From positions 1-64,000 of the IMG/VR virus record IMGVR_UViG_3300032304_000672: DNA of 64,000 nucleotides. One strand, 5' to 3'. The notes under the pieces are model-generated. The model made no database searches, was not told the DNA's origin, and saw only the letters and a program-made list of their open reading frames with translations. The translations under genes and the position numbers were made by a program. Of the stretch, positions 1-27,642 are shown piece after piece. This stretch comes from a virus. The first letter of the stretch is position 1. Each line of letters begins with the position of its first letter.

Positions 1-226
1 GACACAGAGCCTGTGGAAACAGAGCCAATTGACACAGAGCCTGTGGAAACAGAGCCAATTGACACAGAGCCTGTGGAAACAGAACCAGTAGACACAGAGC
101 CTGTGGAAACAGAACCAGTAGACACAGAGCCTGTGGAAACAGAGCCAATTGACACAGAGCCTGTGGAAACAGAGCCAATTGACACAGAGCCTGTGGAAAC
201 AGAACCAGTAGACACAGAGCCTGTGA
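1..226 (+). repeat. Coding tandem repeat, 30-bp unit (GACACAGAGCCTGTGGAAACAGARCCARTW), ~7.5 copies
   Basis: Directly visible; two unit variants encode DTEPVETEPI and DTEPVETEPV. Confidence 0.97.
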
Positions 227-864
227 CGGGATCAGAAGAAGCAGTAGAAGAATCTGTTGATGACGCATTGTCTGATGGTAAAATAGATGCAGAGGAAGCA
301 GAAGATATTTTAAATGAGTTAGCAAGTGATGGTGAAGTAACTGCAGAAGAAGTTCAAAATCTTGCAGATGCTTTATCCGAAGATGGAAAATTAACTAATG
401 CAGAAAAAGAATTAGTGGCAGAGGCTCTTGTAGAGTCTGTTGCTCCTGGAGAATCTTTAACTAAAGAACAAATACAAGAGGCTGGCATTGAGTATAAAGA
501 TTTGCCTGCAGATACACCTGTTGAAGTTCGTCAAGATGAAAACGGTAACGAAGTTGTTATTACTGCAGAGGTAGCAGCATCCTTAGTATTGCTTGAAGAT
601 CCTGCAGAGTTATTATCAACAGCATTTTCAGACCCTGGAGCGGCTATTGAAGCACTAAGCAATATAGGCGCAGATATGTCAGATGAAGAAAGAGAAGAGG
701 CAACAGAAATGGTTGTAGCAACAGTTGTAGCAGCAGGTGCCGCAATTAATGCAGCAGCAGTTGCAACAGGAGGAGCCACTGGAGGTGGCACAGGAGGCGG
801 AGGAAGTTCTGGTGGAGGCTCAGGAGCTAATTCACCAGGTCAAGGAGGAAGAAGAAAATGGTAA
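1..864 (+). CDS. Acidic repeat-containing protein (5'-truncated): TEPVE/TEPID repeats, acidic middle, hydrophobic segment, Gly-rich C-tail
   Basis: ORF track 13..864; the frame is open from the window start; function unknown. Confidence 0.75.
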   Translation, partial: DTEPVETEPIDTEPVETEPIDTEPVETEPVDTEPVETEPVDTEPVETEPIDTEPVETEPIDTEPVETEPVDTEPVTGSEEAVEESVDDALSDGKIDAEEAEDILNELASDGEVTAEEVQNLADALSEDGKLTNAEKELVAEALVESVAPGESLTKEQIQEAGIEYKDLPADTPVEVRQDENGNEVVITAEVAASLVLLEDPAELLSTAFSDPGAAIEALSNIGADMSDEEREEATEMVVATVVAAGAAINAAAVATGGATGGGTGGGGSSGGGSGANSPGQGGRRKW

Positions 865-3164: not shown

Positions 3165-3194
3165 TTGACAAGGCCGTAGCATTTCCTGTATAAT
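3165..3194 (+). promoter_or_regulatory. Sigma70/HrdB-type promoter of the whiB operon, with the -10 flanked by an inverted repeat
   Basis: TTGACA-N18-TATAAT; CCGTAGCAT...ATGCTACGG flanks the -10. Confidence 0.75.
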
Positions 3195-3233: not shown

Positions 3234-3461
3234 ATGTTAAATTTAACAGAACTAGGTGTCGAGGTCTTTATTAAAAAGGCTAAAAATATAACCCCATATT
3301 GGGACAATTACGACCTTATTATTTGGAAAAAAGATCATAACGGTTTTACTAACGTAAAGGGCATGTTCAGAGAGAACGCTTGGGGAATAGCAGATAAAAT
3401 TTCTGTTAACGATAACGGACTATGGAAGTTGCCCACAAAGTATGTCAGAAATTTTAAATGA
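3234..3461 (+). CDS. Hypothetical protein
   Basis: ORF with RBS; first gene of the operon. Confidence 0.7.
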   Translation: MLNLTELGVEVFIKKAKNITPYWDNYDLIIWKKDHNGFTNVKGMFRENAWGIADKISVNDNGLWKLPTKYVRNFK

Positions 3462-3753
3462 TCTAGGTATAGATTCAGAAGATTTAGATTGGTTCCACCT
3501 TGGTATATGTAGAGGAATGGATACCAATTTATTTTATGAAAAGTATGAAGCCGATTCTAATATAGCTAAAAATATAGATGAGATGTGTTTAAGTTGTCCA
3601 GTAATTAGTATGTGCTATGAAACTGGAGCAGAGGGAAACGAGTACGGAGTTTGGGGCGGAGTGTATTTAAGCTCTGGATCAATAGACAAATCGAAGAACT
3701 TGCATAAAACACCAGACACTTGGAAGAGGTTGAAAAAGAAAAATGTTTATTGA
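3442..3753 (+). CDS. whiB: WhiB-family Fe-S transcription regulator
   Basis: Four Cys (C..C-x2-C-x5-C) plus GVWGG turn. Confidence 0.9.
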   Translation: MSEILNDLGIDSEDLDWFHLGICRGMDTNLFYEKYEADSNIAKNIDEMCLSCPVISMCYETGAEGNEYGVWGGVYLSSGSIDKSKNLHKTPDTWKRLKKKNVY

Positions 3754-12708: not shown

Positions 12709-13125
12709 TTAGATGATTCCCTGGTTCATATGATTTATATTAGATCCATTATTGGTCTCATGTAGCCAAGAGTATCTATAGTTTTGTTCTTGTGTTTGAG
12801 GAAGGGACTTTACGAATTCCCCCCGTTCTTTTGGAGTGATAGGTAGTTGAACTGATTTAAGGTCATTAGATACCTTTATTTTATCAATCACCTTGTCTAG
12901 ATGATTAGCAATGATTAATCCTTCACAGACTGTGCCTTCATTGGCTACTTCTCGTCTGTATCGTTCCGCCTGCTTTTCTACTATCCACGCCACAACTTCG
13001 ATAATGCGGTCTATGGTGTAGATAGGTTGTTCTGCTAGATACCTGCCTAAAGCAGCAGGGTTGAAGAAATGGTCTTCTACTGAGTTTGCTAGTAGTTCTC
13101 CGATTTGCTGTTCTTTGGTTTTCAT
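12709..13125 (-). CDS. Hypothetical early protein
   Basis: ORF with GAAAGG RBS and an upstream TGTCAG promoter. Confidence 0.75.
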   Translation of the reverse strand: MKTKEQQIGELLANSVEDHFFNPAALGRYLAEQPIYTIDRIIEVVAWIVEKQAERYRREVANEGTVCEGLIIANHLDKVIDKIKVSNDLKSVQLPITPKERGEFVKSLPQTQEQNYRYSWLHETNNGSNINHMNQGII

Positions 13126-13191
13126 AGTCCGCCTTTCGTCTATAGATTATAGCAGAAGGGACTGACAAGCGCCAGCCCCTCCTGTACACAA

Positions 13192-13338
13192 TTACTTCTT
13201 TGGTGTTGGCTTTTCTGCTTCGAACGTCACGCCTTGGCTAGCTGCGTCCTCCAGAGCTTTGTTTGCTGCTGATGAGAAACGACCACGGGCCCCTACAGTA
13301 ATTCCCTTTGACTTTAAATATTCACGCTTTGTTGCCAT
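13192..13338 (-). CDS. Lsr2 C-terminal DNA-binding-domain-like mini-protein (48 aa)
   Basis: MATKREYLKSKGITVGARGRFSSAANKALEDAA resembles the Lsr2 REWA..G..V..RGR AT-hook motif. Confidence 0.7.
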   Translation of the reverse strand: MATKREYLKSKGITVGARGRFSSAANKALEDAASQGVTFEAEKPTPKK

Positions 13339-13442
13339 TTGATAATCCCCTTTCAAGAGATAGATGTTTTATTTATTATATCGGATACCCACGATTTTGT
13401 AAATACCCCCGTAAGAGCTAAGATCAGCCCCTATGTTCCGCC

Positions 13443-15308
13443 TTAGATATTAAGTTGTAGATCTTCTGATGTATCTTCATCTAAGAATACATCTGTAGCT
13501 TCGATCTCATCATCTGTTGGGATCTCATCCCAATCGGTTGACGGACGAAGGTTCGCAATCTCCGCTGCTTGATATTCGTCGGCAGCGGAAACAATGGTGT
13601 AATAGTTTGTATACTTGGTACCAAAGACTCTATAGATTGGCAAGCATTTCCCTCATTTCCCATTCGGCATATGTACGGACAATAAAGTCCTTATCTAGAT
13701 TATAACAATACAGGACAGCTTTTGTCAAGGAATCCGTCTCATATATTGGCATGTCCATTATGACCTCATTGTCCCCTTTGTCATATACCTCAAAGGTTCT
13801 AATTCCTCCAGGTGAACAATCATATGCAACTTCCAGGATTTCTAAGCTAGGCTCATAATGAGTCATTTGTTCCCTCATCCCCAGACATACGATCTTTGAT
13901 AAGTTTGCTAATGATATTATGTGCTTCGATATTTTCTGTTTCAGACCCACCCCACAAAAGCTTTTGGGCTTTGTTTAATTGATCATTGATATAGATATCA
14001 CTCATCTTCATCTTCTTCCTCCTCTTCGTCTTCTTCAAACATTGTATCCACAATGTACTCACGATTCATCATCCATTCAAGTACGTCATCGTTGTGCTGT
14101 TCCGCCCCGTACTCCAGAGAGAAGCCCTGGCCCGCCTCTACAGCCTCACAGAGGTGGTCCCACATCTCATCTATGGTGCAGTTCTGCTTGTAGGTCTCAT
14201 CCTCAAAGATGTTGTTAATGGTAGACCAAGTCCATAGCCAAACTAAGGATAGACCTAGGTCCGTTGTATCTAGAATCTTTAAACATTCATTTAGTTTATC
14301 TTTATCTTCAGGCTTCATCCCGTGCTCCTTTCGCAAAAGCAATGTCATATGTCAATTTGTACAAATCTCCTAGAGCGTCAAGGTACCCTTCTAGGTGTAA
14401 GCGGTCCACGGTTTGGTCATACTGTTCGTCATCTTGATTTGTATATTCAGATAACTTCTTTTCTGTTTCAACCATTAGGACCTTTAGTTCCCCGTGCATT
14501 ATGTCAGCCCCGTCCATTCCGATGTTTATCATACGTTGCAAATGGGGCGGGAGCCCAATGTCTTCATTATTCATTAATATACCTTTCGTTAGAGTTATTC
14601 ATTATATCAGTAGCCACTGACAATAAATGTTCGGTTGCCATAATTTGTCCCTGGATATTAATCTTAGATTGAACATTGTAATCACCCTCTAAGTCCTGGT
14701 TAAGACTAATTAGATGTAACTTCATATACTCCAGGAAGTATGATGATTTAGTTTGTGTAGTCAAAGTAACCCTCCGCCCACAGACCTTGCAAGAAACTAA
14801 CAGCGTCTTCCAAGTCTTTCCTCAAAGGCTCCTTGTTCATTAAATCGGACGGGGTCCTAAGATAAAAAAGCTTTGAATCGTGTACAGCATTAATCATTCT
14901 ATTTAGATCAGACTCAGTGTAACCTAGCATAGGTCATACTCCATATCCCAAGATACATCAGGCCAATTTAAATCATATCTTGCGCTATCAACTTCACCTA
15001 AATCGTTTAGGTGTAGATTAATTTTCTCGTGTGCTTCTTTCTCATTATTGGCCATTACTGCACCTTCTAATTTAATTACAAATCCATACTTATTCAAAGT
15101 AGTCCTCATCTCCTTCTGTTAGGTTATAGAATTTATTAAATTCAGATTGAATAAACTCATCTCCTGACATTTCAGCAAATTGTTTATCTGCATAATATTG
15201 CCCTTCGTCAAGATTACTATTAATCCAATCTTCAAGTAATTGTTCTGCTATATCTTGGTAGCAAGCGTCAATTACCATTTGATTTACATCTTCTAAGAAA
15301 CTAGCCAT
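13443..15308 (-). CDS. Run of ~9 coupled small, mostly acidic hypothetical genes
   Basis: ORF track: 13443-13643, 13630-~13866, ~13853-14005, 13998-~14320, 14308-14574, 14567-14764, 14748-14930, 14924-~15100, 15090-15308. Confidence 0.7.
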
Positions 15309-16092
15309 TTAGCGCTTCCTCCTGTGTGTAGGTTTTCAAAGGTAATAATACACTATGGGTCTGACATTCTTTCATAGCCACCTCATCCTGCCAAGAGCCT
15401 TCATTACATTCTGAGCAGAATTCACCGCAGTCATCTTCACAATAACTTAATGTATCGTAAGACTGGCAAGCATAGCAACGATTCTCATATTCAACTAATT
15501 CTTTTACTTCACCACGGACAATCTCATATTCCCCACCCCAACCTGTTTCTTCCTCAAACTCTAATGTAAGCAGGCAGTTAGGAACAAGATTACTTAGTTT
15601 AGTTAAGATAGTTACAGCAGGTGACCAAGCCGTCTCATACTTATAGACAACCCAGTTGTCATCACCTTCTGATTTATATTCAAGCAATTCCGTATTTGGA
15701 TATTTATCACCGTCACGGACGGCTACATCCCATTTAGTTCCCCAGTTGGAGTTATTCCACGAATACCAATCCTTCTGTGTCTTAGCAAACTCAACAGATT
15801 TGCGGAACCAATCAGGGTCATTCTGAATATCTATACCACCACGAGAAGGCTGGCAGGCATACTCTTCATCAGTAATACCTTCATCTTTATATGAGTGAAT
15901 ATTGAAGAAAGCAAAGACAGGATTAGAATAACTTACCTGTTCAATTTTGGTGGGGAATCCTGAAAGACTAATATCACCCATACCATAAGTCTCTTGTGCT
16001 AATGTAAATGGACTATTCAGTCTATCCTTGATATAATCAACTTCTGACTTTGGTCCTTGAATTGTTAACGTATTGTAACACCAATTTGGCAT
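15301..16092 (-). CDS. DUF1281/YubB ferredoxin-like protein with C-terminal Cys cluster
   Basis: MPNWC.N, WGTKWD and TAWSP motifs. Confidence 0.8.
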   Translation of the reverse strand: MPNWCYNTLTIQGPKSEVDYIKDRLNSPFTLAQETYGMGDISLSGFPTKIEQVSYSNPVFAFFNIHSYKDEGITDEEYACQPSRGGIDIQNDPDWFRKSVEFAKTQKDWYSWNNSNWGTKWDVAVRDGDKYPNTELLEYKSEGDDNWVVYKYETAWSPAVTILTKLSNLVPNCLLTLEFEEETGWGGEYEIVRGEVKELVEYENRCYACQSYDTLSYCEDDCGEFCSECNEGSWQDEVAMKECQTHSVLLPLKTYTQEEALNG

Positions 16093-16264
16093 TTTATTTC
16101 CTTTCGCTAATAACCCAATTATATACTAGACCACTGACATTTGGAATACCTTTTGGGTGTGTTCCACACCACATTTTCCAAGCTATGTGGTCAAGATCAC
16201 AAAATTTCAGGGGAATTATATTGACTTCCGTAAAAGAGATATGATACCCTCACCTGTTGCGGGC

Positions 16265-16415
16265 AAACAAAAATCCCCCAGGGCAAGCTGGGGGATCAGA
16301 TAAGTAAGGCTGCTAGCAGAACGAAAGGAATTTAGTAAACGCTGCTTTATTTAACGACTTGGGGAAAACCCTAGTAGCCGCACCATACTTTAATGAAAAG
16401 GTCCGCTAGGACCTA
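16265..16415 (-). ncRNA. Candidate sRNA carrying the anti-RBS loop UUCCUUUCGUU
   Basis: Extended -10 TGCTATAAT at 16429-16421; nested stems; terminator ATCCCCCAG/CTGGGGGAT followed by a U-tract; no ORF. Confidence 0.55.
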
Positions 16416-16441
16416 TTCATATTATAGCATATCTTAGTTAA

Positions 16442-16846
16442 CTAAACTGGGACAACAACATCTGCGTACTTCTCAACGAAGTTACTCAGGTCCATAGTAA
16501 AGAGCGCTTCATTGCTCATCCCATTAACCTTGTTATCCAAATCATTCCTTGGCGCCTCTTCGTGAAGACTGAATGTCTGCTGCTGGAAATCGACAATAGC
16601 AATCTTGTGCTCGTTATCGCCAATCTCATTTACGTGCAAGCCCCATCCAGTTTCCATATTCCACTGGTCCGCAATCATATTACTGATTGTGATACGTGTT
16701 GCATATGAAGGGTCATTCCAACGAGGACGTGCTTTAAACACTGCCTCTGCTAGATTCGCTAGCATTTTATGGCCTGCCCAGTGACCGTATAGTACAATTG
16801 TATTTCCGTTAGGTTGGACGAATCCAAAGTTTGCTCTATCTCCCAT
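16442..16846 (-). CDS. Hypothetical protein
   Basis: ORF with RBS. Confidence 0.75.
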   Translation of the reverse strand: MGDRANFGFVQPNGNTIVLYGHWAGHKMLANLAEAVFKARPRWNDPSYATRITISNMIADQWNMETGWGLHVNEIGDNEHKIAIVDFQQQTFSLHEEAPRNDLDNKVNGMSNEALFTMDLSNFVEKYADVVVPV

Positions 16847-17413
16847 TACATTTCCGCCTTTTCTAGTTGAGGTACTTCTTCGGTTTTATTCAATTCTATC
16901 ATTTCAAAGGAGACCTTGTCAAGGGCCTCTTTGTTTTTATTATAGTGGTGGTGGCAAAAGAAAAGCTCACCATCTACTAGTTTAATTAGATACATAGCCT
17001 GAGCTGTACCGCATTGATCACAGCCGATCCATCTAGTTAGATCCTCAGAGGTCATAGTCAACGGTTCCAAATTCAATACGGTCTGCAATGTCATCGTATA
17101 CTTGGCCATCATCCTCAGACTCAGCCCACACACGAATGTTTGCGACAATTACTTCACGAGCAAATTTGACGCCGTCTTCAAAACCATCTTGGTAATCCAT
17201 TTTATCTCCTTGTATATCCTGTCGGTTCGTAGTCTGATGTATAACTCTCTGTGAGATTATACTTATCTCGAATCCGACTTACTTTCTCAATGCTACCAGT
17301 TCCGATGTTGAATGTCAACGGTGATAATGCAGTTGGGTCCAGCCCAATCATCTGAGCATCCCAATAGGCCATCTCCATAGATAGCCTATCGGGAGCAGTC
17401 AACTCAAAATACA

Positions 17414-18049
17414 TTATGCTTCCCTCACATTACAAACTTCTTGGTCACCAATTTCAATGTTACCATTGTTTGATTCAGCAAAGATAGCATCTGTAATTTC
17501 TGACTCAAGGTCTAAGTCATAATCATTTTCAAGAATGTTGTAAGAATATGTTCCGCTAACTTCGATAGATGCGGTCCACTCAACTTCCTTAATTAATTCA
17601 ATTGATAGCGCTTCAGCAATTTCACGCAATGTGTCTTGGTCTTGTGAGTCTGCATATGCCTCGCAGATAATTTCCTTAACTGCATCAATCTTGCCATTTA
17701 GAACGCCGTTAGTCTTCTGTGCTTGACGGGCATTGTGCAGGTCCCATTCAATTGATGTAACCTTATCAGTTGCATATTCTGCATCTGAATATCCACGGAT
17801 AACTTTATAGGTTACCAATAGATTAGGGTTATATGTATCAGGCACCGTTACTGTGTTTGTCTCTTCCATTTTATTTCCTTCCGTTTCTGTTGGTTGTATT
17901 GTAGCATCTTCGACTGACAATAACACTGTACTATTGTTACACGGGCATGTGATATTAGTCACAGGCTGAAATGCATCGGGACATGTAAATTCAATTAAAG
18001 AATCACATGTACTGCACACGTATGTATATTTACTCCAGGTTTGTGTCAT
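17414..18049 (-). CDS. Hypothetical protein with Cys-rich N-extension and internal start at 17869
   Basis: Leaderless start at 18049; internal promoter and RBS before MEETNT. Confidence 0.7.
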   Translation of the reverse strand: MTQTWSKYTYVCSTCDSLIEFTCPDAFQPVTNITCPCNNSTVLLSVEDATIQPTETEGNKMEETNTVTVPDTYNPNLLVTYKVIRGYSDAEYATDKVTSIEWDLHNARQAQKTNGVLNGKIDAVKEIICEAYADSQDQDTLREIAEALSIELIKEVEWTASIEVSGTYSYNILENDYDLDLESEITDAIFAESNNGNIEIGDQEVCNVREA

Positions 18050-18175
18050 GCGAGTATTGTACAGGACCCCACTGACATTTACAATAGAATTCAGGGCTTT
18101 TTTTATGTGATCCGTAACACAGAAATCCTGCCTTCAATGTTGCGGGCGTCTCATATATTGAGAATCAAATCTTAG

Positions 18176-18249
18176 CGATCCATATCGGACTTGAACCGAC
18201 GGCCTCTACCGTGACAGGGTAGCGCTCTAACCAACTGAGCTAATGGACC
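18176..18249 (-). tRNA. tRNA-Asp(GTC)
   Basis: GGTCCATTAGCTCAGTTGG...CTGTCAC...GGTTCAAGTCC cloverleaf. Confidence 0.93.
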
Positions 18250-18290
18250 TAATGGTGAGCAGTTTTAAATCTTGCTCAGGATTTTTTTAT

Positions 18291-19295
18291 TTAGAAAGTT
18301 GCAACCATTCGATACAACTTATTTTTTTCTGCGGTTAGAATTGGGTCAAACCCTGATGCACCCGCCATAAGAGTTTCACCATTGCCACGACCTGAACGAT
18401 AGTAATCAAGGCGCTCAGTTAGTGCATTGAACGCACCCCACTTTGTTCCCTTGATTGTAGCGTTAGTTGGTGAGTTGTGATACAAATCGTCAATGAGAAC
18501 AACTTTGTTTTCCCATTTCTTCAATGAACCCTTCAAATCCTTGTCAGGCTTAGGATAGATTGTCTGAATCAACTTAGAGAATTCAGCATCGGTGATTGCT
18601 TGTGAGTAAAGTGCCTTTGCTTGAACTTCGAATTCATCAAAGTATCCAAGAGCAAGCCCAAGAGTTTCACGAGCAACTTGAATGCGACCTTCAACAGATT
18701 GCGTGTGGCGAATCTTGAAAGATTGCTTAGCATTCTTCATTGCAAGGTTTAGCGTGTTTTGGCATACAACACGAACAGGTGTAACGGCTGCTTGAACAGC
18801 AACAGAACCATCGTGTGAAGTCCAGACAATGAGATAAAGTTTTGTCTCATCGTTGGCGCCTTGTGGGTCAAGAACCATTGTGCGTGGAATGTCCACAGTT
18901 CCGAACACAACTTTGCCCTTCTTTAGTGAGCCAGCAGATTCCCAACGGCAATCAGCATTGGCATCGTGAATTGCATCAGCGAATGCAAACAGTTCTTCAT
19001 TCTGAACTGGCTTGTAACGTTTTCCAACAGTTGCGAGAACATCAGTTCCGCCGTTGAATGGATTGTCACGAATGACAAGAGATGCTTCTGAAACATCATT
19101 CCAAGATTCTGAAATGTGGTCAGTTAGTGGAGACAAGCGAACATTCCAATTTGCTAACTTTGCTTCTTCAAGCATTGTTGCAGTTGTAACTTCCTCATCT
19201 TTTGTGAAGATACGATTTGCAAGGTTGTGCCAAGCAGGTGCGCCACGAAGAGCAAATGCAACTTCGCCGTTTTCGACTTCGAGATTGTGAGCCAT
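18291..19295 (-). CDS. DUF932/DUF945 family (TIGR03299-like phage/plasmid protein)
   Basis: MAHN...AWH, Y.PVQN, SHDGS, RVVCQNTL and RHT motifs. Confidence 0.9.
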   Translation of the reverse strand: MAHNLEVENGEVAFALRGAPAWHNLANRIFTKDEEVTTATMLEEAKLANWNVRLSPLTDHISESWNDVSEASLVIRDNPFNGGTDVLATVGKRYKPVQNEELFAFADAIHDANADCRWESAGSLKKGKVVFGTVDIPRTMVLDPQGANDETKLYLIVWTSHDGSVAVQAAVTPVRVVCQNTLNLAMKNAKQSFKIRHTQSVEGRIQVARETLGLALGYFDEFEVQAKALYSQAITDAEFSKLIQTIYPKPDKDLKGSLKKWENKVVLIDDLYHNSPTNATIKGTKWGAFNALTERLDYYRSGRGNGETLMAGASGFDPILTAEKNKLYRMVATF

Positions 19296-19505
19296 TTATT
19301 TCCTTTCGATTAGTTGTTGATTGCAATTATAACAGGTGGCACTGACATTGTCTAGATTAGTTAGTCATTTGTCCGAATTGTCTGGGGTGATCATTATCAC
19401 AAATTTTTGGGGGTTTTCCACAGGTAGTCGTAAGGCTGTGGATAACCCCGCAGCTCTGCGGGCAGCTGGGGAAATAGGGCGGGAATAAGATCCCGCCCTA
19501 AGTCT

Positions 19506-19745
19506 TTAGATTAGTTTAGTTAATTCAGTTTTCTTAGGAAGAACGTCCATTGGTAAAAACAAAGCAGTTGTTTTCTTTTTCTTTATGTTGTCATAAACAA
19601 ACGCTTTAATGTTTCCTTGAAATCTGCGTAGATTAGAAAATACCATTTCAGTTAAGTATTCTTTATCTACACCTTGCTCAGAGTAAAGAGTTAAATCGTT
19701 AGCCTTTACTTCATCATAGATTTCAATTCTATAACGATTTTTCAT
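19506..19745 (-). CDS. Hypothetical protein
   Basis: ORF with RBS; downstream hairpin at 19476-19500. Confidence 0.7.
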   Translation of the reverse strand: MKNRYRIEIYDEVKANDLTLYSEQGVDKEYLTEMVFSNLRRFQGNIKAFVYDNIKKKKTTALFLPMDVLPKKTELTKLI

Positions 19746-19890
19746 TTTGTTCCTTTGTTAGTAGGGATACGAATTATAGCATTGGGACGTATAGTTTGTC
19801 TAGCCCCGTAGGGTTGAGCAGTTTTGCGACTTACTCAGGTCGTTTGGGTTTAGGTGTCTAGACTTTGTGTGCTAACCCCCCAAAACCTAT

Positions 19891-20307
19891 TTAGAGATAC
19901 TTAGCAATCTGCTTCATTGTAGAAGCATTTACTGTTTCCTCATCTGTCATTTTGAGAATTGTTAGGGCATTTGTAATGTCCTCTTTCATCTCACGATAAC
20001 TGTGCTGATGGATTTGCTCAAAATCCTTTTCAGGTTCAGCAGGGAAGTTGCCTTCCTTTGTGATAATGTCAAAATCAACATTGAGAGTGTTGTTCCATTG
20101 ACGATAGTTTGTGCGAAGGTTCTCAGCCTTTGAGAAGTTAGCAATAGCCCACTTACCAATTTCCTTTTTCCACGCTTCTACTGCTTTCTGAAACTTTGCT
20201 TCTTTTTCTGATTGTGAAGCATAGTCTTTCTCTAGTGTTGCTAGACGAGTTTCTAGTGCCTTGATTACTTTGGTAGTTGCTACCTTTACTGTGATTTGTC
20301 TTGACAT
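19891..20307 (-). CDS. Hypothetical protein (start revised to MSRQ)
   Basis: RBS and promoter lie inside the track's longer ORF. Confidence 0.75.
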   Translation of the reverse strand: MSRQITVKVATTKVIKALETRLATLEKDYASQSEKEAKFQKAVEAWKKEIGKWAIANFSKAENLRTNYRQWNNTLNVDFDIITKEGNFPAEPEKDFEQIHQHSYREMKEDITNALTILKMTDEETVNASTMKQIAKYL

Positions 20308-20439
20308 TTTTTCCCTTTCGTTTAGTTTGTTTGGTTGTATTGTATCAGGTGCTACTGACATTTCCACCCGAAGGTGGAGAGTTCTTACTTACGACATTGG
20401 ACTAGAACACTCTCTAAACTGTCCCTGTTTCGATTTTAT

Positions 20440-20595
20440 TTAGTTGTTAGGTGCGCTAGTCCAGCGTTCCTTGCCATTTACATCAAGCAGGATACGATTT
20501 GTTCCGCTAGGGTGATTATCAACCGCCTTGATAACTCCTGTGATACCGCTTGTTGTTGTTGTGTAGGTCTGACCTACTTCTAGTGTTGTTGTCAT
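20440..20595 (-). CDS. Small beta-rich hypothetical protein (start revised to MTTT)
   Basis: GAAAGGAA RBS and promoter upstream. Confidence 0.7.
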   Translation of the reverse strand: MTTTLEVGQTYTTTTSGITGVIKAVDNHPSGTNRILLDVNGKERWTSAPNN

Positions 20596-20710
20596 TTTGT
20601 TTCCTTTCGCTAGGGTTGTTATTATACAGGGTGGGTCTGACATTTTCCACCCCAATCTTATTATTTGAGATGATAAGCGTGTGAGTAATCTCACACGCCT
20701 ATCTTGATCC

Positions 20711-21204
20711 CTAGTCCTCGTATTGAGGGAGCCACGCTTCTAGGTGGTGAGCATCTACTATTGCAGACGCAGGGCAGGAAGTCTGACCTCGCCAAGTGAT
20801 ACCTTCAGGAAGATTAATCTCTCGACTATACTCCTCATCATAGAACGCATCAATAGCGTCTATGCAAGGTTGCACCATTGAGACGGGAACGGGTGGGTAA
20901 TGATTACCTTGTAAGTGATAGGCAAGTCCTGCCTCTAGTCCTAATTCTTCTTCTAGTGCTAACGCTGTTGTGTATCCCATTAGATAGTTTCCTTTACTGT
21001 TAATTCTGCCCAAGTGTTATTTTCATTTGCTACTGTTAGTGTGTTAGACATAGCAAGAGCGTTAATTGTTGCATCCTTACACATTTGCTGAATTGCAGTT
21101 TCATCAAGAGCAATTAGCGCAGGCAATAAGTTTGCAGGGATTTTATCCAAGTCAATAATTGCCTCGAATACTACTGTGTGTGGAACTTTCATTAGGTTAG
21201 ACAT
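20711..21204 (-). CDS. Two coupled hypothetical genes (20980-21204 and 20711-20980)
   Basis: TAATG overlap. Confidence 0.7.
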
Positions 21205-21495
21205 TTGTTACCTTTCGTTGTTGGAATAATGGTATTTTACACTAAGCCACTGACATTACCTAATCCATTATGGGCGTGTCGCAGCTTTTGTGAGATTAAT
21301 CACAAAATTTCAGGGTTATCCACAACTAGTCCGTAAGCCTGTGGATAAACCCGCAGTATTGCGGGCCCTTTACTCTTCTTCGGACCAGATATCAGGATCC
21401 TTTTCTTTTAAATATTCTAGTGCAGCTTTTCTCTGATCATCAGTTCCCATTACCGTGGCCATTAATGCATTGAAGTATTCCATTTTTATTTCTCC

Positions 21496-22215
21496 TTATT
21501 TTTTAGTTGCGCTAAATCGAATGTCTGCTTTACCGTAAACACATAATCCACAAGATACACAAGCAGAACCAGCATTGCTAATTAGTGGAATTGATTTCAT
21601 ATTCTCAGGACACTTAGCGCCAGGCTTGCCCGTCAATTCTTTCATTGTGCTTTCGGTTACGGCGAATGTCTTCCCTAAGTATGCAAGGCGAATACCTTCA
21701 TTTGCTTTTAGTTCGTGACCGATTTCTTTATTATCATCGTCGGTAGAATAGTAAAGAGATAGGTTAGATACATCCTTAAGAATAAGCGCTGCAGACTTTA
21801 CACGTGTGTAAACCCAGAATTGAACATCGGTGTGCTCATTGATTACATTCTTCCAGGCATAAGTATAGAAATCATTAAAGAAATCCCCGTCCCAGTGGAT
21901 ACGGAATAACTTAGGAGCGTCTTTCTTATCACAATCAGATTTAAATTCAATAATCATTTCATTTAGCAATTGATACATTGTTTCCATATCAGCATTGCGT
22001 AGCAATTCCCAATTGTGTAGAAGATTAGTTTTTACTCCCTTGAAGAGTTTTTCCAATTTTCCTGCGTAGCAAACACTCTCACAAATACTAGTGGCACCAG
22101 GGCACGAGTAATCCTTTCCAGCGGGGAGACCGAACGTGTTAGCAATTGCGGCTTGCTTTCCATTTTTTGTGACAAGGTTAGCCACCTTTCTATCATTAGA
22201 ACGTTTTAGTTTCAT
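21496..22215 (-). CDS. Gp88-like Cys-rich (Fe-S/radical-SAM-like) protein
   Basis: CPGA...C...CYA, RIHWDGDF, YTR and C..C.LC motifs; leaderless start MKLK. Confidence 0.75.
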   Translation of the reverse strand: MKLKRSNDRKVANLVTKNGKQAAIANTFGLPAGKDYSCPGATSICESVCYAGKLEKLFKGVKTNLLHNWELLRNADMETMYQLLNEMIIEFKSDCDKKDAPKLFRIHWDGDFFNDFYTYAWKNVINEHTDVQFWVYTRVKSAALILKDVSNLSLYYSTDDDNKEIGHELKANEGIRLAYLGKTFAVTESTMKELTGKPGAKCPENMKSIPLISNAGSACVSCGLCVYGKADIRFSATKK

Positions 22216-22246
22216 AGGCGTAATTATAGCGGTTAGGTCCGACATA

Positions 22247-23873
22247 TTAGTAATCTTCATCCATACCAAAACCAGCGGAAGCAAGAGCATCGGAATCAGC
22301 CCAGCCAGTTAATTCATAGAATTCCATTTCTTCAGCATCATAGCATTCAGCGCAGATATAGTCATCACCATAGATTTCATATTCTTCAATTGAATCGAAA
22401 GTTTCTTGAGCACCACAAATTTCATAGTTCAAGCAAGCGACAGTAAATAGTTCCATTATGGACCTCTTTCGTTAGTAGATAGTGGAATTATAGCAGACTA
22501 GACTGACATTTTTTGCAACTCGCTCAAAATTCTAGGGTGTTTTAGATCACACCCGTAACGACACGCCCGACTCCGCAGCTCTGCGGGCATCCCGCTTGTT
22601 TGTCAAGCGGGGCACACCATTTATTTAACGCTAACCTTTTTCTTTTTTATTAGCGCTTTAATTTGTCTTTCTGTTACTCGTGTTCGTTCTGTTGAATACT
22701 TATAAATTGTTCCCGCCTTCTTTGCTTCCTTTACATAGATGCGGTCAAACTCTGCACGATGCTTTTTAATTAACTGCTTTACTGCTTCGTTTCTAATTGC
22801 TGTTGCTGGTGGTGTCATTTTTATTCCCTTTCGTTTTTGTTTTTGTGTTTTGTTTTGCGTGTGTATTTCTTTTTATTCCTAACAGGTTGCGCCGCATTAC
22901 TGCGACGCAATTCCTGAATGCGTTTTACCTTATCAAGAACGGAACTGCGGAACATTATACCCACTCGCTTCGTGAAATCGTTTTACATCAAATCGCTCAT
23001 TATCTTTTGCGAACATCTCCGCAAAATCATTTACCATTTTAGAAAATACAGCAGGGTGAGTTTTATTGCTGACATACTTTAGAATTTCTGCCGTTGCGAT
23101 GTAATCTTTTCTAGTCATCATTTTACTGCCACCATTCCGCTACGATAGAAAACTTTTGTATAGCATTTGCCTGCTGGCGTGTAGAGATTAACTGTAGAGT
23201 ATTCGTTAGCCATTCCCCAGTCGGTGAATAAGAAAAAGTTTTCCCACGCACCAAATTCGCTTTCGTATTCTGCTGACCAATGCGGAGCATTTGAGTCATA
23301 GGCGCAAGTTAGTTTATACATTATCCATTTACCCAATCTACTGTTAATTCATCTGCTACATCTGCGATACAATCGCAAGGCTCGCAATCATAATTATTTT
23401 CATTTCCCCAAAATACAAATCCTGCGCCACCGCATTCATCACAATTCGCTGCGATTATTTCTATGTATTCTTTCATTTTAGCCATTTAGGTTTTCCCTTT
23501 CGTTTGTTTGTTTAGTTATTGTATCAGGTAGCACTGACAAATTAGATAGCGCCCTCTTGAAATAATCCAATTTCAAGAGTTAGCATTTCATCGGGTGTTG
23601 CTTCGGATAAATCTACCCAGCCAGCACCCTCGTTGTCCATTCGGAAAATTTCGATGTATCCCATTATTATTCACCAACCTTTACTGCGATTGTTGCGAAT
23701 TTATTTCGCAGACCGCCAGCACGAACCTCGATTAGATAGGCTTCAGTTTTTTCGCCATACCAAATTTCTGGGCGGTGTTCCGCTGAAACGATTTCGCCAG
23801 AAAAATGGCGATTTCGTGAGCGATAGTTTTTCCCTACAAGTAGGCTTTCGATTGTGTATAGTTTGGTAGCCAT
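22247..23873 (-). CDS. Series of small hypothetical genes
   Basis: 22247-22456, 22621-22818, 22933-23121, 23118-~23320, 23667-23873 and short intervening ORFs, with RBS. Confidence 0.65.
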
Positions 23874-24127
23874 TGGCAGACCTTCTTTCGTTTGTTGTTA
23901 TGTATGGAATTATACACGAACGGACTGACATTTTCACATTACTAGCCAGTAAATCCAAATAGTGAGACGCTCAAGCCGTGTGATACTAATCACATAAAAA
24001 TGTCCGATTTGTCTGTCAAATCGACACGCCGTAGAATTCAGGGAATTTTATAACAAATCCGTAACGACACGCCCGACCCCGTGCCTTTGCGGGCCAGCTT
24101 GAGTTTGTCAAGCCGACACGCCGTTAG

Positions 24128-25795
24128 TTATTCAAAATCTTCAAATATTTTTTCTAGTTGAAGAATTTGCTCATCGGTAAGATGATCTAATTCGATTGCG
24201 TGTTCGAATCCATAAAATTCCATTTTTATTTTTCCTCTTCTTCTAAATTAAAAGTGTTTTCTAAAACGGAATTTGCTTTAGTTAAAGCGGATAACGCATT
24301 CGCAAGACTTTCCTTGCGTTGTGTTTCAACGTGATTTTTAAATTCTTCTAAATTCATTAGTTAGACTCCTTATCTAAACAGTTAATACAATTACAATTTT
24401 TACTAGAGAATAAAAACTTTAACAACTCTTTACGAGTGTAAGTATCTAAACCATAAGAGGATTTTACTCCGCCGTTATGGTAATCGTGAACGATAGTAGA
24501 GAATAGAGTTTCATTTAGTGTAGTCATTTGAGACCACCTTTCTTTTAACGATTAAAACCTTATTTAATCTTGATACTAGTATCCTATCATAGACCACTGA
24601 CATTTTGACCCCTTTTTCGGGCGTGTCGGAAAACTATTTTTGTGATTTAGGTCATGTGGATAACTTACGCTCAAATTTTGGGGGATTTCCACACCTGTGC
24701 ATAAAGCTGTGGATAACGCCCGCAAAAGACTGCGGGCCGAATCGCCTTTGTCAAGGCGACACGCCGTTAGGCTAGTGTGATTTATCCCACTCTCTAAAGT
24801 CTGCGACGATCTCCCGCCACATTAGGCGGAGCATTAGCAGGGTAGGTATTCCGATACCTAATTGGACGGCGGTAGTTAGTAAGCGATTAGTAGTCATTAC
24901 TTATTCTTCTTTCTCTTATAAATCTTATAAGCGATTAGTGCTAGGGCGGTGATAATAATAGTGTGCCAAGGTAAGTAGATAGAGCCTAAGAAACTATCAA
25001 ACTCTAATCCGTATTCGCTTGTTATGTATAAATCAAATCCGTTAGGTATCATTCGTATGCCTCCCAATCTAATGTTAATGATTTAGATAATTCATCTTCA
25101 TCGTATTCGGTAGAGCCTAACTCTATTAAGCCCTCTTCTAGAGCCTTGTTATACATTTCTTCTTCATCAAGATAGACATAAGCGTCTGCTACATCTGCCT
25201 GAATAGTATCCCATTTAGTCATCATTACTTTACCTCTACTTCTCTAATGTTATAAGTGAAACCCTTACCGAGTTTATTTAGTTCAGCAATTACCGCTAAG
25301 ATTTCTTCAGGCTTACTAGCCTTTTGATTTACGGCTAATAGTTGAGAGCCTTGCCATAGTGTGTAGGTTATTGTCATTTTATTTTCTATCCTTTTCGTTA
25401 GTTGTTAGTTGGTTGTTGAGCGATTATTTGCTAGGCTCACCTTTCGGATTATTTGCTAGGCTCACGCTCTAATTCTTATTTAGTTATGGTGTAACCTTAT
25501 CACGGGCTACTGACATTTAGTCGGATTTAGCCGATAGTGTCGGTGTGATTATGCTCACACTTAGACTCTATCTCGTGTCCGTATTCCTCTACGAGTTCCT
25601 CGTAGATTTCGTCCATATAGTCAAGATAATCGTTCATTAGTTATTCTCCTTTCCAAGAGTGTTGTGTGTAGCGTAGTTACCGCCACACATTACGCAGAGT
25701 GTCCAAGCGGTTACTCTACCGCACCCTGCTGAGCAAGATACATAGTCGTTATTAGTAAGGTAGTCGTTACGACTTTCCCAAATTCTGTTTGTCAT
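24128..25795 (-). CDS. Array of ~9 translationally coupled micro-ORFs (25-58 aa)
   Basis: Translated by eye; TAATG/ATGA overlaps, RBS and promoters present; below the ORF-track cutoff. Confidence 0.65.
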
Positions 25796-26871
25796 TTTAT
25801 TGACCTTTCTTTTTAAGTATTAAGTATTTCTTAACTTCTTATACTATAAGCCTAACAGGGGGGACTGACAAATAGGGGGGTTACTGGCAAGTATTGTTAA
25901 ACTATTTTTGTGATTAGCATCACATCTACGCTCAAAGTTAATAATCTATGGGCGCACTATATAGACAAAACGGACATTTTAAAACTCTGGATCATACAAA
26001 ATAAATGGCTATTAACATTTTGATAAATCTGATATTGCAGTTGACTGAAACAATGCTACAATAAGCTATGAACTTAATTCAAGCGGCAGTGATATTTGGT
26101 CCAGTTATTATTCTCTTGATCGCATTTCGCAAAGATATTTTTTAAAAACTCTTGACCTAGCAAAATCTGCCATGTTATACTTAAGGCTGGTTTGTGGGGG
26201 CTTACACTGAAACTCATAATGACGGAAATGTGTAGCTTCTCTATCTTACAAAATTGATTTCAAATTTTGGGGGGTAGGGGGGCTTTCCTAAAATCTAAAA
26301 ATCTGGAAATGTAATTAAAAGAAATATATATCATATATATCTTAGTTGACTAGAATATAGATAGAGTATACAATAAAACAATGGCATCAACCCGATTAGT
26401 AACTTGTGATAAATGTGGGCGGGAAATCGAAGTGAGATCTGGATTTGCCCATATGACACTAATGAATCACCAAAAGATATGTAAGTGATATAATTAGACT
26501 ATGCATGATCACAATAATATAACTTTAGCTACTGGTTCAGGAATAACTGAAATGCAACTCATGTGGTTCATAATGGGTGTAATGGCAATACATCACACTT
26601 GGATGTGGTGGAAAATGCGTTCAAAGAAATGTACTTGCAAAAAATAATTTTTTAACATTTTGTTAAATCTGATATTATAGTCGACTAGGATTAATATGAA
26701 TATGAAATGTAATTTCTGTGATAATCAAAAGTATGTTGAAAGATTAAACAACAAAGGTGTACTTGAGAATTACTGTGTACAATGTATTGAAAAATTAAAA
26801 AGGCGGGAAGGCTAGAAACTTCTCTTGCTATAATTAAGCTATATGGGACTCTATAAGGGTACAAGGTACCA

Positions 26872-27412: not shown

Positions 27413-27485
27413 TGACCCATAGCTCAGTTGGTAGAGCGTCGAACTGTTAATTCGAATGTCCCAGGATCGAGACCTGGTGGGTCAG
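27413..27485 (+). tRNA. tRNA-Asn(GTT)
   Basis: TGACCCA/TGGGTCA acceptor stem; CTGTTAA loop; atypical T-loop GATCGAGA. Confidence 0.88.
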
Positions 27486-27489
27486 CGAT

Positions 27490-27563
27490 GCGAGTGTTAC
27501 ATAATGGTAGTGTCTCTGCCTTCCAAGCAGATAGTGCCAGTTCGATTCTGGTCACTCGCTCCA
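27490..27563 (+). tRNA. tRNA-Gly(TCC)
   Basis: GCGAGTG/CACTCGC stem, CTTCCAA loop, encoded CCA. Confidence 0.92.
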
Positions 27564-27564
27564 G

Positions 27565-27637
27565 CTCTTCGTAGCTCAGAGGACAGAGCATTCGGTTTCT
27601 ACCCGACTGGTCGCAGGTTCGACTCCTGCCGAAGAGA
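27565..27637 (+). tRNA. tRNA-Arg(TCT)
   Basis: CTCTTCG/CGAAGAG stem, TTTCTAC loop, GGTTCGACTCC. Confidence 0.88.
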
Positions 27638-27642
27638 CTTAT

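What the first reader, a model, noticed from the sequence alone, without database searches (positions are those of the whole stretch)
13146..25870. Phage early island wired to the host PafBC (RecA-NDp) DNA-damage promoter motif: 16 copies
Seen: 16 minus-strand sites read TGTCRG-N10-TA-N3-T with invariant spacing. Examples are TGTCAGTGGCTACTGATATAAT (14622-14601), TGTCAGTGGTCTAGTATATAAT (16139-16118) and TGTCGGACCTAACCGCTATAAT (22244-22223). Each lies just upstream of an RBS or a leaderless ATG. I saw none in the late + strand genes, which use TTGACA or TGn-extended -10 promoters. Known: this matches the actinobacterial LexA-independent RecA-NDp motif recognised by the WYL-domain activator PafBC, which reads a -26 element via sigma adaptation and is activated by ssDNA. 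Inference: the early programme is switched on by host PafBC, either sensing host DNA damage or triggered by incoming phage DNA, or by a phage-encoded PafBC/WYL mimic outside this window. I know of no described phage regulon of this kind.
Basis: partly seen in the sequence, partly recalled or inferred. Interest (0 to 1): 0.92.

Follow-up and report, generated by a model that had tools for sequence, protein, structure and literature searches.

The report
Lake phage promoters copying PafBC promoters
An uncultured 104-kb lake phage of actinobacteria drives its one block of small genes from 17 promoters built exactly like the host promoters that the single-stranded-DNA alarm protein PafBC switches on (for example at recA), so the phage probably plugs into its host's DNA-damage switch; nothing has been tested at the bench.

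Summary
TGTCRG-N10-TANNNT occurs 17 times (16 TGTCAG, 1 TGTCGG). All sites are on the minus strand at 13146-25870, and there are none elsewhere in the 103.7-kb genome (0.99 expected by chance).

Each site heads a short unit of small ORFs. Two are followed by an ATG 6-7 nt after the -10 box, which suggests leaderless mRNAs.

In 428 orthologous alignments from relatives, T,G,T,C,-,G and TA---T are 98-100% conserved, while the spacer is 51-79% conserved.

The geometry equals the published PafBC consensus tGTCgg(N10)tA(N3)T. There is no -35 box, and a TGn extended -10 is added.

The phage encodes WhiB, so its host is an actinobacterium. It has no WYL or PafBC homologue and no integrase.

Sampled actinobacterial genomes carry canonical pafB-pafC and the same motif before recA. 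The closest match is in 1.4-Mb genomes.

A second phage lineage (portal 52% identical) carries arrays of the TGTCGG variant. The cultured Streptomyces relatives Karimac and BillNye carry none.

Use of host PafBC is the best reading (confidence about 0.65) but is untested. The 'early' timing and the host identity are inferred.

I found no paper describing this. The scan has already noted the same thing on other DNA: 47 notes in at least 41 genomes.

The parts
12709..25870 (-). The only minus-strand gene block of the genome. It holds about 45 small ORFs in at least 17 short transcription units. Contents: DUF932 at 18291-19295, GP88/PF17338 at 21496-22215, DUF7455 at 16846-17148, an Api92-like gene at 15301-16092, and the rest without a known family.
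13146..13167 (-). PafBC-type promoter TGTCAGTCCCTTCTGCTATAAT
14601..14622 (-). PafBC-type promoter TGTCAGTGGCTACTGATATAAT
15345..15366 (-). PafBC-type promoter TGTCAGACCCATAGTGTATTAT
16118..16139 (-). PafBC-type promoter TGTCAGTGGTCTAGTATATAAT
17898..17919 (-). PafBC-type promoter inside the 211-aa ORF. It is followed by a Shine-Dalgarno and an in-frame ATG at 17869, which would give a 151-aa short form.
18056..18077 (-). PafBC-type promoter. The ATG at 18049 lies 6 nt after the -10 box, so the 211-aa ORF 17414-18049 would start leaderless.
19326..19347 (-). PafBC-type promoter TGTCAGTGCCACCTGTTATAAT, before the DUF932 gene
20339..20360 (-). PafBC-type promoter
20621..20642 (-). PafBC-type promoter
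21234..21255 (-). PafBC-type promoter
22223..22244 (-). PafBC-type promoter, the single TGTCGG variant. The ATG at 22215 lies 7 nt after the -10 box, so the GP88-family gene would start leaderless.
22487..22508 (-). PafBC-type promoter
23518..23539 (-). PafBC-type promoter
23909..23930 (-). PafBC-type promoter
24581..24602 (-). PafBC-type promoter (-10 box TAGGAT)
25494..25515 (-). PafBC-type promoter (-10 box TAAGGT)
25849..25870 (-). PafBC-type promoter (-10 box TAGGCT), the first of the block
16186..25924 (.). Nine CRP/GlxR-like palindromes TGTGA-N6-TCACA with at most 1 mismatch, starting at 16186, 17948, 18106, 19386, 20680, 21289, 23979, 25544 and 25909. Each is centred 36.5 to 56.5 nt upstream of a TGTCAG (five at 36.5 or 46.5); in relatives the distances fall in 10-nt steps.
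16268..16425 (-). Candidate small RNA inside the block. It has a TGn -10 box, a loop UUCCUUUCGUU complementary to the shared leader AACGAAAGGAA, and an intrinsic terminator.
3442..3753 (+). Phage WhiB gene behind a canonical TTGACA-N18-TATAAT promoter at 3165. This is context: it marks an actinobacterial host.

Best explanation
The 17 sites are promoters of the PafBC-dependent (RecA-NDp) class. Each has a -26 element TGTCAG(T) at -28 to -23, no -35 box, and a TGn-extended -10 box exactly 10 nt downstream. The proposed mechanism is inferred, not shown. The host heterodimer PafBC, once loaded with single-stranded DNA, inserts between sigma-A region 4 and the DNA ('sigma adaptation') and recruits host RNA polymerase to these promoters. 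The phage's block of about 45 small genes would then fire when ssDNA appears in the cell. That ssDNA could come from processing of the incoming phage DNA, from replication or host-DNA breakdown, or from UV damage to the host. The phage supplies only the DNA sites; the factor is the host's. Unlike the host's recA-type promoters, the phage sites carry no LexA box, so they would be switched on by the alarm but not held off by LexA. About half the promoters also have a helically phased CRP/GlxR-type palindrome upstream, which suggests a second input.
For: SHOWN. (1) The motif is crisp, strand-specific and confined to one block.
(2) The sites sit at unit starts. Two give an ATG 6-7 nt after the -10 box, which places the transcription start where the model needs it.
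(3) Selection acts on exactly the PafBC-read bases. In 428 orthologous alignments below 97% identity, T0, G1, T2, C3, G5 and T16, A17, T21 are 98-100% conserved. Position 4 (the R of TGTCRG) is 85% conserved, the spacer 51-79% and the flanks 65-90%. 410 of the 428 keep the motif.
(4) In 80 related loci there are 1047 sites on the gene strand and 10 on the other strand. A logo from 743 contexts shows no -35 box.
(5) The published consensus is tGTCgg(N10)tA(N3)T. Its -26 element lies at -23 to -28, and the GTC triplet is read by PafB R46 and R50 (PMC8635444).
(6) On the host side, WYL genes are present in 200 of 201 genomes of the class sampled. Genome G142 has pafB-pafC-tatA-tatC, and its PafB aligns to M. 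smegmatis PafB (7P5X) and keeps R46 and R50. The strict motif lies before recA in 25 of 31 genomes. In G097 and G142 it reads TGTCAGTGGCnCCTGCTAnnnT (G203: TGTCAGAGG...), which matches the phage's flavour.
(7) The phage has no WYL domain and no PafB or PafC homologue.
(8) A second lineage, G211, has a portal only 52% identical to ours. It carries 15 co-oriented sites, nearly all the TGTCGG variant. Phage lineages therefore differ only at the position where host PafBC sites are degenerate.
(9) Mis-spaced patterns (+1 nt) found only single hits in IMG/VR, whereas the correct spacing found more than 120 loci, many of them with arrays.
Against: No binding, transcription or expression data exist. 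The host is unknown and uncultured, so its PafBC is inferred from sampled relatives. 83% of phage sites add a TGn extended -10 box and a near-consensus TATAAT, which is far more than the host sites do (4 of 15 in G142). These promoters may therefore work with sigma-A alone. PafBC needs ssDNA to act (PMC11804915), which is awkward for genes expressed immediately after injection. The closest cultured relatives, Streptomyces phages Karimac and BillNye, have no such site. A matrix built from host recA sites ranks 15 of the 17 phage sites in the top 24 positions, but its absolute scores lie within the range of shuffled sequence because of GC bias.
Confidence: 0.65

Rival explanations
1. The TGTCRG element is read by a phage-encoded factor of unknown family, acting as a MotA-like activator or adaptor, or by another host factor. 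Under this reading the likeness to PafBC sites is convergence or competition.
For: Most of the roughly 45 block genes and many + strand genes have no known family, so a novel DNA-binding protein cannot be excluded. Canonical sigma-A promoters at 3165, 9904 and 82742 could express such a factor first. The motif is absent from the cultured relatives Karimac and BillNye although their hosts have PafBC.
Against: An independent element would have to match both the 6-nt host element and its exact 10-nt spacing. Only the R position varies between phage lineages, as in host sites. There is no WYL domain and no PafB or PafC-like HTH in the phage. The block genes turn over fast between lineages that keep the motif, with only 1-6 shared ORFs at 40-64% identity, so no obvious co-inherited factor gene lies in the block.
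Confidence: 0.15
2. These are constitutive sigma-A promoters driven by the TGn-extended -10 box. TGTCRG then serves as a site for negative control, or as a sink that titrates PafBC-RNAP away from the host's repair and defence regulon.
For: G at -14 occurs in 83% of sites and the -10 box is close to TATAAT. Seventeen strong sites on a replicating genome could soak up a scarce activator. In host genome G142 the same promoter type heads a low-GC island with two cytosine methylases, TPR proteins and a protease, which a phage might want kept silent.
Against: The element is asymmetric and locked to the -10 box on one strand, which is typical of a promoter element rather than a dimeric operator. A pure sink would not need to sit before every transcription unit. 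PafBC forms its complex only together with RNAP on promoter DNA (PMC11804915), so 'binding' and 'activating' are hard to separate.
Confidence: 0.12
3. The array is a by-product of repeated duplication of one promoter-leader cassette, or a chance pattern, and has no regulatory meaning.
For: The units share a similar layout of palindrome, TGTCAG, -10 box and the AACGAAAGG leader.
Against: Spacers and flanks are not alike between the 17 copies, yet the eight motif bases are 98-100% kept in orthologues. Shuffles never exceed 3 sites.
Confidence: 0.01

Closest known systems
PafBC-dependent (RecA-NDp, recA P1-type) promoters of Mycobacterium and other Actinobacteria, read by 'sigma adaptation' (PMC8635444, PMC11804915)
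   Same: The hexamer TGTCRG at -28 to -23, an invariant 10-nt spacer to TAnnnT, no -35 box, the GTC triplet under the strongest constraint, and the same motif at recA of sampled host-type genomes.
   Different: The sites lie on a lytic-type phage genome as a dense array of 17, before genes of unknown function rather than repair genes. They add a TGn extended -10 box and a near-consensus TATAAT, and they lack the LexA box that accompanies the motif at host recA, dnaE2 and LysM genes. PafBC dependence has not been tested.
T4 middle promoters (a MotA box at -30 plus a -10 box, read through AsiA/MotA 'sigma appropriation'). This comes from my own knowledge and from the comparison drawn in PMC8635444.
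   Same: A phage gene class whose promoters replace the -35 box with a factor-specific element upstream of a normal -10 box, read through a remodelled sigma region 4.
   Different: In T4 both factors are phage-encoded. Here no phage factor was found, and the element equals a host activator's site.
Phage and prophage genes wired to the host SOS repressor LexA, for example LexA-controlled antirepressors of temperate phages (my own knowledge)
   Same: Phage transcription coupled to the host's DNA-damage signal.
   Different: That coupling is repression by LexA in temperate phages. Here it is an activator-type promoter in a phage with no LexA boxes and no integrase.
WYL-domain regulators of anti-phage defence islands (BrxR, CapW; PMC9122601, PMC9122588, PMC11662680, listed)
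   Same: ssDNA-sensing WYL factors link phage attack or DNA damage to transcription. In host genome G142 PafBC-type promoters head a defence-like island.
   Different: Those regulators act on host defence genes, mostly as repressors. Here the phage itself carries the sites.

Membership tests
PafBC-dependent (RecA-NDp) promoter class | A -26 element tGTCgg (TGTCRG) on the coding strand | tested here: met
   17 of 17 sites (16 TGTCAG, 1 TGTCGG). T, G, T, C and the final G are 99-100% conserved in orthologues.
PafBC-dependent (RecA-NDp) promoter class | Exactly 10 nt between the hexamer and a TAnnnT -10 box | tested here: met
   17 sites at N10 against 0-4 at any other spacing. IMG/VR scans with a +1 spacing found only single hits.
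PafBC-dependent (RecA-NDp) promoter class | No -35 hexamer | tested here: met
   The logo of 743 contexts has no information upstream of the hexamer other than A at -3 to -1 relative to it.
PafBC-dependent (RecA-NDp) promoter class | Transcription starts about 7 nt after the -10 box | tested here: inconclusive
   Support is indirect only: in-frame ATGs 6-7 nt after the -10 box at 18049 and 22215.
PafBC-dependent (RecA-NDp) promoter class | The cell in which the promoter acts encodes PafB-PafC | tested here: inconclusive
   The true host is unknown. WYL genes occur in 200 of 201 genomes of the sampled class, or 193 of 194 without the unpublished ones. Canonical pafB-pafC-tatA-tatC is present in G142, with R46 and R50 kept. 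The phage itself has none.
PafBC-dependent (RecA-NDp) promoter class | PafBC binding with RNAP-sigma-A, and ssDNA- or DNA-damage-dependent activation | not testable with these tools
   This needs in vitro transcription, ChIP or reporter assays.
T4-type sigma appropriation (MotA/AsiA) | A phage-encoded activator and co-activator that read the upstream element | tested here: inconclusive
   No known DNA-binding family was found among the 20 largest block and flanking proteins scanned. The MotA and AsiA families were not searched specifically.
LexA/SOS-controlled phage genes | An actinobacterial LexA box TCGAAC-N4-GTTCGA at the promoters | tested here: not met
   One match with 2 mismatches in 64 kb, which is chance level.

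The most novel reading that the evidence does not exclude
A large, abundant group of lake actinophages uses the host's ssDNA alarm (PafBC) as its own infection sensor. The same signal that switches on host repair genes, and in genomes such as G142 a defence-like island, would fire the phage's block of small, fast-evolving genes, which are possibly counter-defence genes. A phased CRP-type input and an anti-leader small RNA would tune the response. That would be a host activator-based 'sigma adaptation' regulon captured wholesale by a virus.
Probability: 0.3. Interest if true: 0.85.

Novelty: new variant of a known kind. Interest (0 to 1): 0.72.

Why it matters
PafBC and sigma adaptation are known only as a bacterial DNA-damage response. 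Arrays of its promoter on abundant lake phages would show that viruses can adopt a host activator-dependent promoter class for a whole gene block without encoding any factor. Phage gene expression in sunlit waters would then be tied to DNA damage and ssDNA in the host.

The idea can be tested directly with published M. smegmatis assays, because the motif is shared across actinobacteria. It would also give a sequence signature for assigning uncultured phages to actinobacterial hosts and for marking a co-regulated block of probable host-takeover genes.

Tried and rejected
- Megablast of the block against cultured phages found no match.
- A WhiB search of bacterial genomes mostly hit phage contigs mis-binned into Bacteroidia, Arenimonas and Chitinophagaceae MAGs. 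It gave no firm host. The 41%-GC contig in an Aquiluna MAG is itself phage-like.
- Two IMG/VR pattern scans were typed by mistake with one extra spacer base. I kept them as spacing controls.
- A matrix from 25 host recA sites ranked the phage sites high, but its absolute scores were no better than in shuffled sequence because of the hosts' high GC. I count this as weak support only.
- Also tested and rejected: a phage WYL or PafBC mimic, LexA boxes, degenerate extra sites and integrases.
- I ran no structure or complex prediction, because no protein-protein claim is made.
Full report

The pattern TGTCRG-N10-TANNNT has 17 exact matches in the window. All are on the minus strand between 13146 and 25870. 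Dinucleotide shuffles gave a mean of 0.99 and never more than 3.

The window is the first 64 kb of a 103,695-bp IMG/VR virus record. The record's 'terminal repeat' is only an 83-bp overlap inside a tandem-repeat gene, which indicates a circular assembly. The rest of the genome has no further site, and the + strand has none.

Only the 10-nt spacer is used: 17 sites, against 0-4 for any other spacer. One-mismatch variants are at chance level, so the class is sharply defined.

**2. Anatomy**

The sites lie in the only minus-strand block of the genome, about 12.7-25.9 kb. The block holds about 45 small ORFs. The few with a family are DUF932, GP88 (PF17338, a mycobacteriophage family), DUF7455 and an Api92-like domain.

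Each site heads a unit of 1-6 ORFs. Fifteen sites are followed 20-50 nt later by an A-rich, G-poor leader ending in (A)ACGAAAGG and a start codon.

Two sites are followed by an in-frame ATG 6-7 nt after the -10 box:
- At 18049, the start of the 211-aa ORF.
- At 22215, residue 26 of the GP88 ORF, which is where many relatives' matches begin.

Leaderless mRNAs of this kind are typical of actinobacteria (my own knowledge). They place the transcription start where a -10 box reading requires it.

A logo from 743 distinct contexts in relatives reads aAA-TGTCAG-T-S-S-nnn-c-T-G-c-TAtAAT. G at -14 occurs in 83% of sites, which makes a TGn extended -10 box, and nothing is conserved where a -35 box would lie.

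**3. Conservation**

The GP88-like gene has more than 588 relatives in IMG/VR. In the 80 best loci (1.2 Mb) the motif occurs 1047 times on the gene strand and 10 times on the other.

To avoid circular reasoning, I aligned the 17 sites with 150-nt flanks to these loci without requiring the motif. This gave 428 distinct alignments below 97% identity:

| Positions | Conservation |
|---|---|
| T0, G1, T2, C3, G5 | 99-100% |
| T16, A17, T21 | 98-100% |
| Position 4 (the R of TGTCRG) | 85% |
| Spacer | 51-79% |
| Flanks | 65-90% |

410 of the 428 alignments keep the motif. Selection therefore acts on exactly these eight bases.

**4. What the motif matches**

The PafBC ChIP-seq consensus is tGTCgg(N10)tA(N3)T. 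The cryo-EM work places the PafB HTH on a '-26 element' at -23 to -28, finds no -35 box, and shows the GTC triplet read by PafB R46 and R50 (PMC8635444). PafBC joins RNAP-sigma-A on such promoters only when ssDNA is bound to its WYL domains (PMC11804915). The phage sites have the same hexamer, the same spacing and the same lack of a -35 box.

**5. Host side**

The phage encodes a WhiB at 3442-3753, a hallmark of actinophages. Its portal is 58-60% identical to those of Streptomyces phages of the Stanwilliamsviridae. It has no WYL domain, no PafB or PafC homologue (phmmer E above 0.8) and no integrase.

The true host is unknown. I reached actinobacterial genomes through a WhiB hit in an Aquiluna MAG:
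- WYL genes were found in 200 of 201 genomes sampled from that class. This tally includes seven unpublished genomes (G009, G017, G026, G032, G034, G038, G045). Without them it is 193 of 194.
- In the published genomes, a strict TGTC[AG]G-N10-TAnnnT lies upstream of recA on the recA strand in 25 of 31. Three more have a one-mismatch version at the same place.
- The nearest match to the phage's flavour is in three 1.4-Mb, roughly 51%-GC, single-contig genomes: G097 and G142 read TGTCAGTGGCnCCTGCTACCTT (G203: TGTCAGAGGCGCC...), each followed by a LexA box.
- G142 has pafB (WYL+WCX), pafC (HTH_PafC+WYL), tatA and tatC in that order. Its PafB aligns to M. smegmatis PafB in 7P5X and 9FND (E about 4e-39) and keeps the RMFER arginines, R46 and R50.
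- In G142 the motif also precedes a ChiZ-like LysM gene, a DnaE2-type operon and carD. About nine sites head genes in a low-GC island, many with an ATG 6 nt after the -10 box.

**6. Breadth**

The cultured relatives Karimac and BillNye have no site at all.

In IMG/VR, patterns typed with one extra spacer base found only single hits. The correct spacing with TGTCGGTG found more than 120 loci, many of them with arrays.

One of these is a complete 112-kb phage, G211, whose portal is only 52% identical to ours. It has 15 co-oriented sites in one block, nearly all TGTCGG-T-[GA]-G. At least two deep lineages therefore carry arrays. They differ at the one hexamer position where host PafBC sites are degenerate, while the genes in the block are largely different. 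This favours a shared host factor over a phage factor inherited together with the block.

**7. Mechanism**

My committed reading, at about 0.65 confidence, is that host PafBC activated by ssDNA adapts RNAP-sigma-A to these promoters and so switches the block on.

- Shown: the sites, their placement, their selective constraint, their identity with the host promoter class, and the absence of a phage PafBC.
- Inferred: binding and activation by PafBC, the source of ssDNA, the 'early' timing, and the host.

The genome also has canonical TTGACA-type promoters before the whiB operon (3165) and the replication module (82742). The PafBC-type block may therefore be delayed-early rather than immediate.

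The phage sites lack LexA boxes. They would respond to the alarm without LexA repression.

The main caveat is that the strong TGn/TATAAT -10 boxes might work without any activator.

**8. Rivals**

- A phage-encoded or other factor reading TGTCRG: 0.15.
- Sigma-A-only promoters, with TGTCRG serving as an operator or a PafBC sink: 0.12.
- Duplication or chance: about 0.01, contradicted.

**9. Novelty**

Full-text searches for PafBC or RecA-NDp together with phage terms found no description of phage promoters of this class. whiB-encoding lake actinophages are known as a group (PMC10914622). A 2025 paper cited in PMC12848934 links pafBC to mycobacteriophage resistance, but it does not concern phage promoters.

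This scan has already noted the same feature on other DNA: 47 notes in at least 41 genomes, with follow-ups that reached the same reading. Those are AI notes and I do not count them as evidence.

I rate this a new variant of a known kind. The promoter class is known; its wholesale use by a virus is not.

Noticed in passing
window 16186-25924 (palindromes starting at 16186, 17948, 18106, 19386, 20680, 21289, 23979, 25544, 25909): CRP/GlxR-like palindromes TGTGA-N6-TCACA: 10 in the window against 2.8 expected, 9 of them in the block. Their centres lie a set distance before the TGTCAG. In 430 of 739 distinct promoter contexts from relatives the distances peak at 26, 36, 46 and 56 nt, with a minor peak at 41. 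This is helical phasing, at about -54.5, -64.5, -74.5 and -84.5. It suggests a second, dimeric regulator acting from one face of the helix, either a host cAMP-receptor-type protein or a phage protein.
   Followed up: partly
window 16268-16425, minus strand: An ORF-free transcript candidate behind a TGcTATAAT -10 box. It folds well (-51.3 kcal/mol, z = -3.98) and ends in an intrinsic terminator at 16297-16272. Its hairpin loop exposes UUCCUUUCGUU, the complement of the leader AACGAAAGGAA shared by most genes of the block. It may be an anti-leader small RNA that damps translation of the block.
   Followed up: partly
L111 and L112 (genome G142, contig 1, 438-476 kb): In a 1.44-Mb actinobacterial genome, about nine TGTCAGTG-type promoters cluster in a low-GC (0.44-0.46) island. 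Most have an ATG 6 nt after the -10 box. The island encodes two C5 DNA methyltransferases (Type II), TPR proteins and a trypsin-like protease. G097 and G203 show similar clusters. PafBC-type control of a defence-like island would fit the role of WYL regulators in phage defence.
   Followed up: partly
window 17414-18077, minus strand: Two PafBC-type promoters serve one reading frame. The promoter at 18077 gives a leaderless 211-aa product from the ATG at 18049. The promoter at 17919, inside that ORF, is followed by a Shine-Dalgarno and an in-frame ATG at 17869, giving a 151-aa product. One gene may thus yield long and short forms.
   Followed up: no
window 1-400 and genome 103300-103695: The record's 'direct terminal repeat' is an 83-bp overlap within 30-nt-period tandem repeats of a Pro/Thr/Glu-rich gene that spans the record ends. 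It signals a circular assembly, not physical genome ends.
   Followed up: no
L092-L098 (MAGs G204, G205, G206); L095 (Aquiluna MAG G001): Contigs of related whiB phages are binned into Bacteroidia, Arenimonas and Chitinophagaceae MAGs of GTDB species representatives. In G204, contigs C6, C57 and C106 carry arrays of the same motif. This is bin contamination by an abundant phage group, so these MAGs should not be used for host assignment.
   Followed up: partly
window 18175-18249 (-), 27413-27638 (+); genome 100170-100244 (+): There are five phage tRNA genes: Asp, the cluster Asn-Gly-Arg, and Met. tRNA-Asp sits inside the PafBC-type block, just upstream of the promoter at 18077.
   Followed up: no
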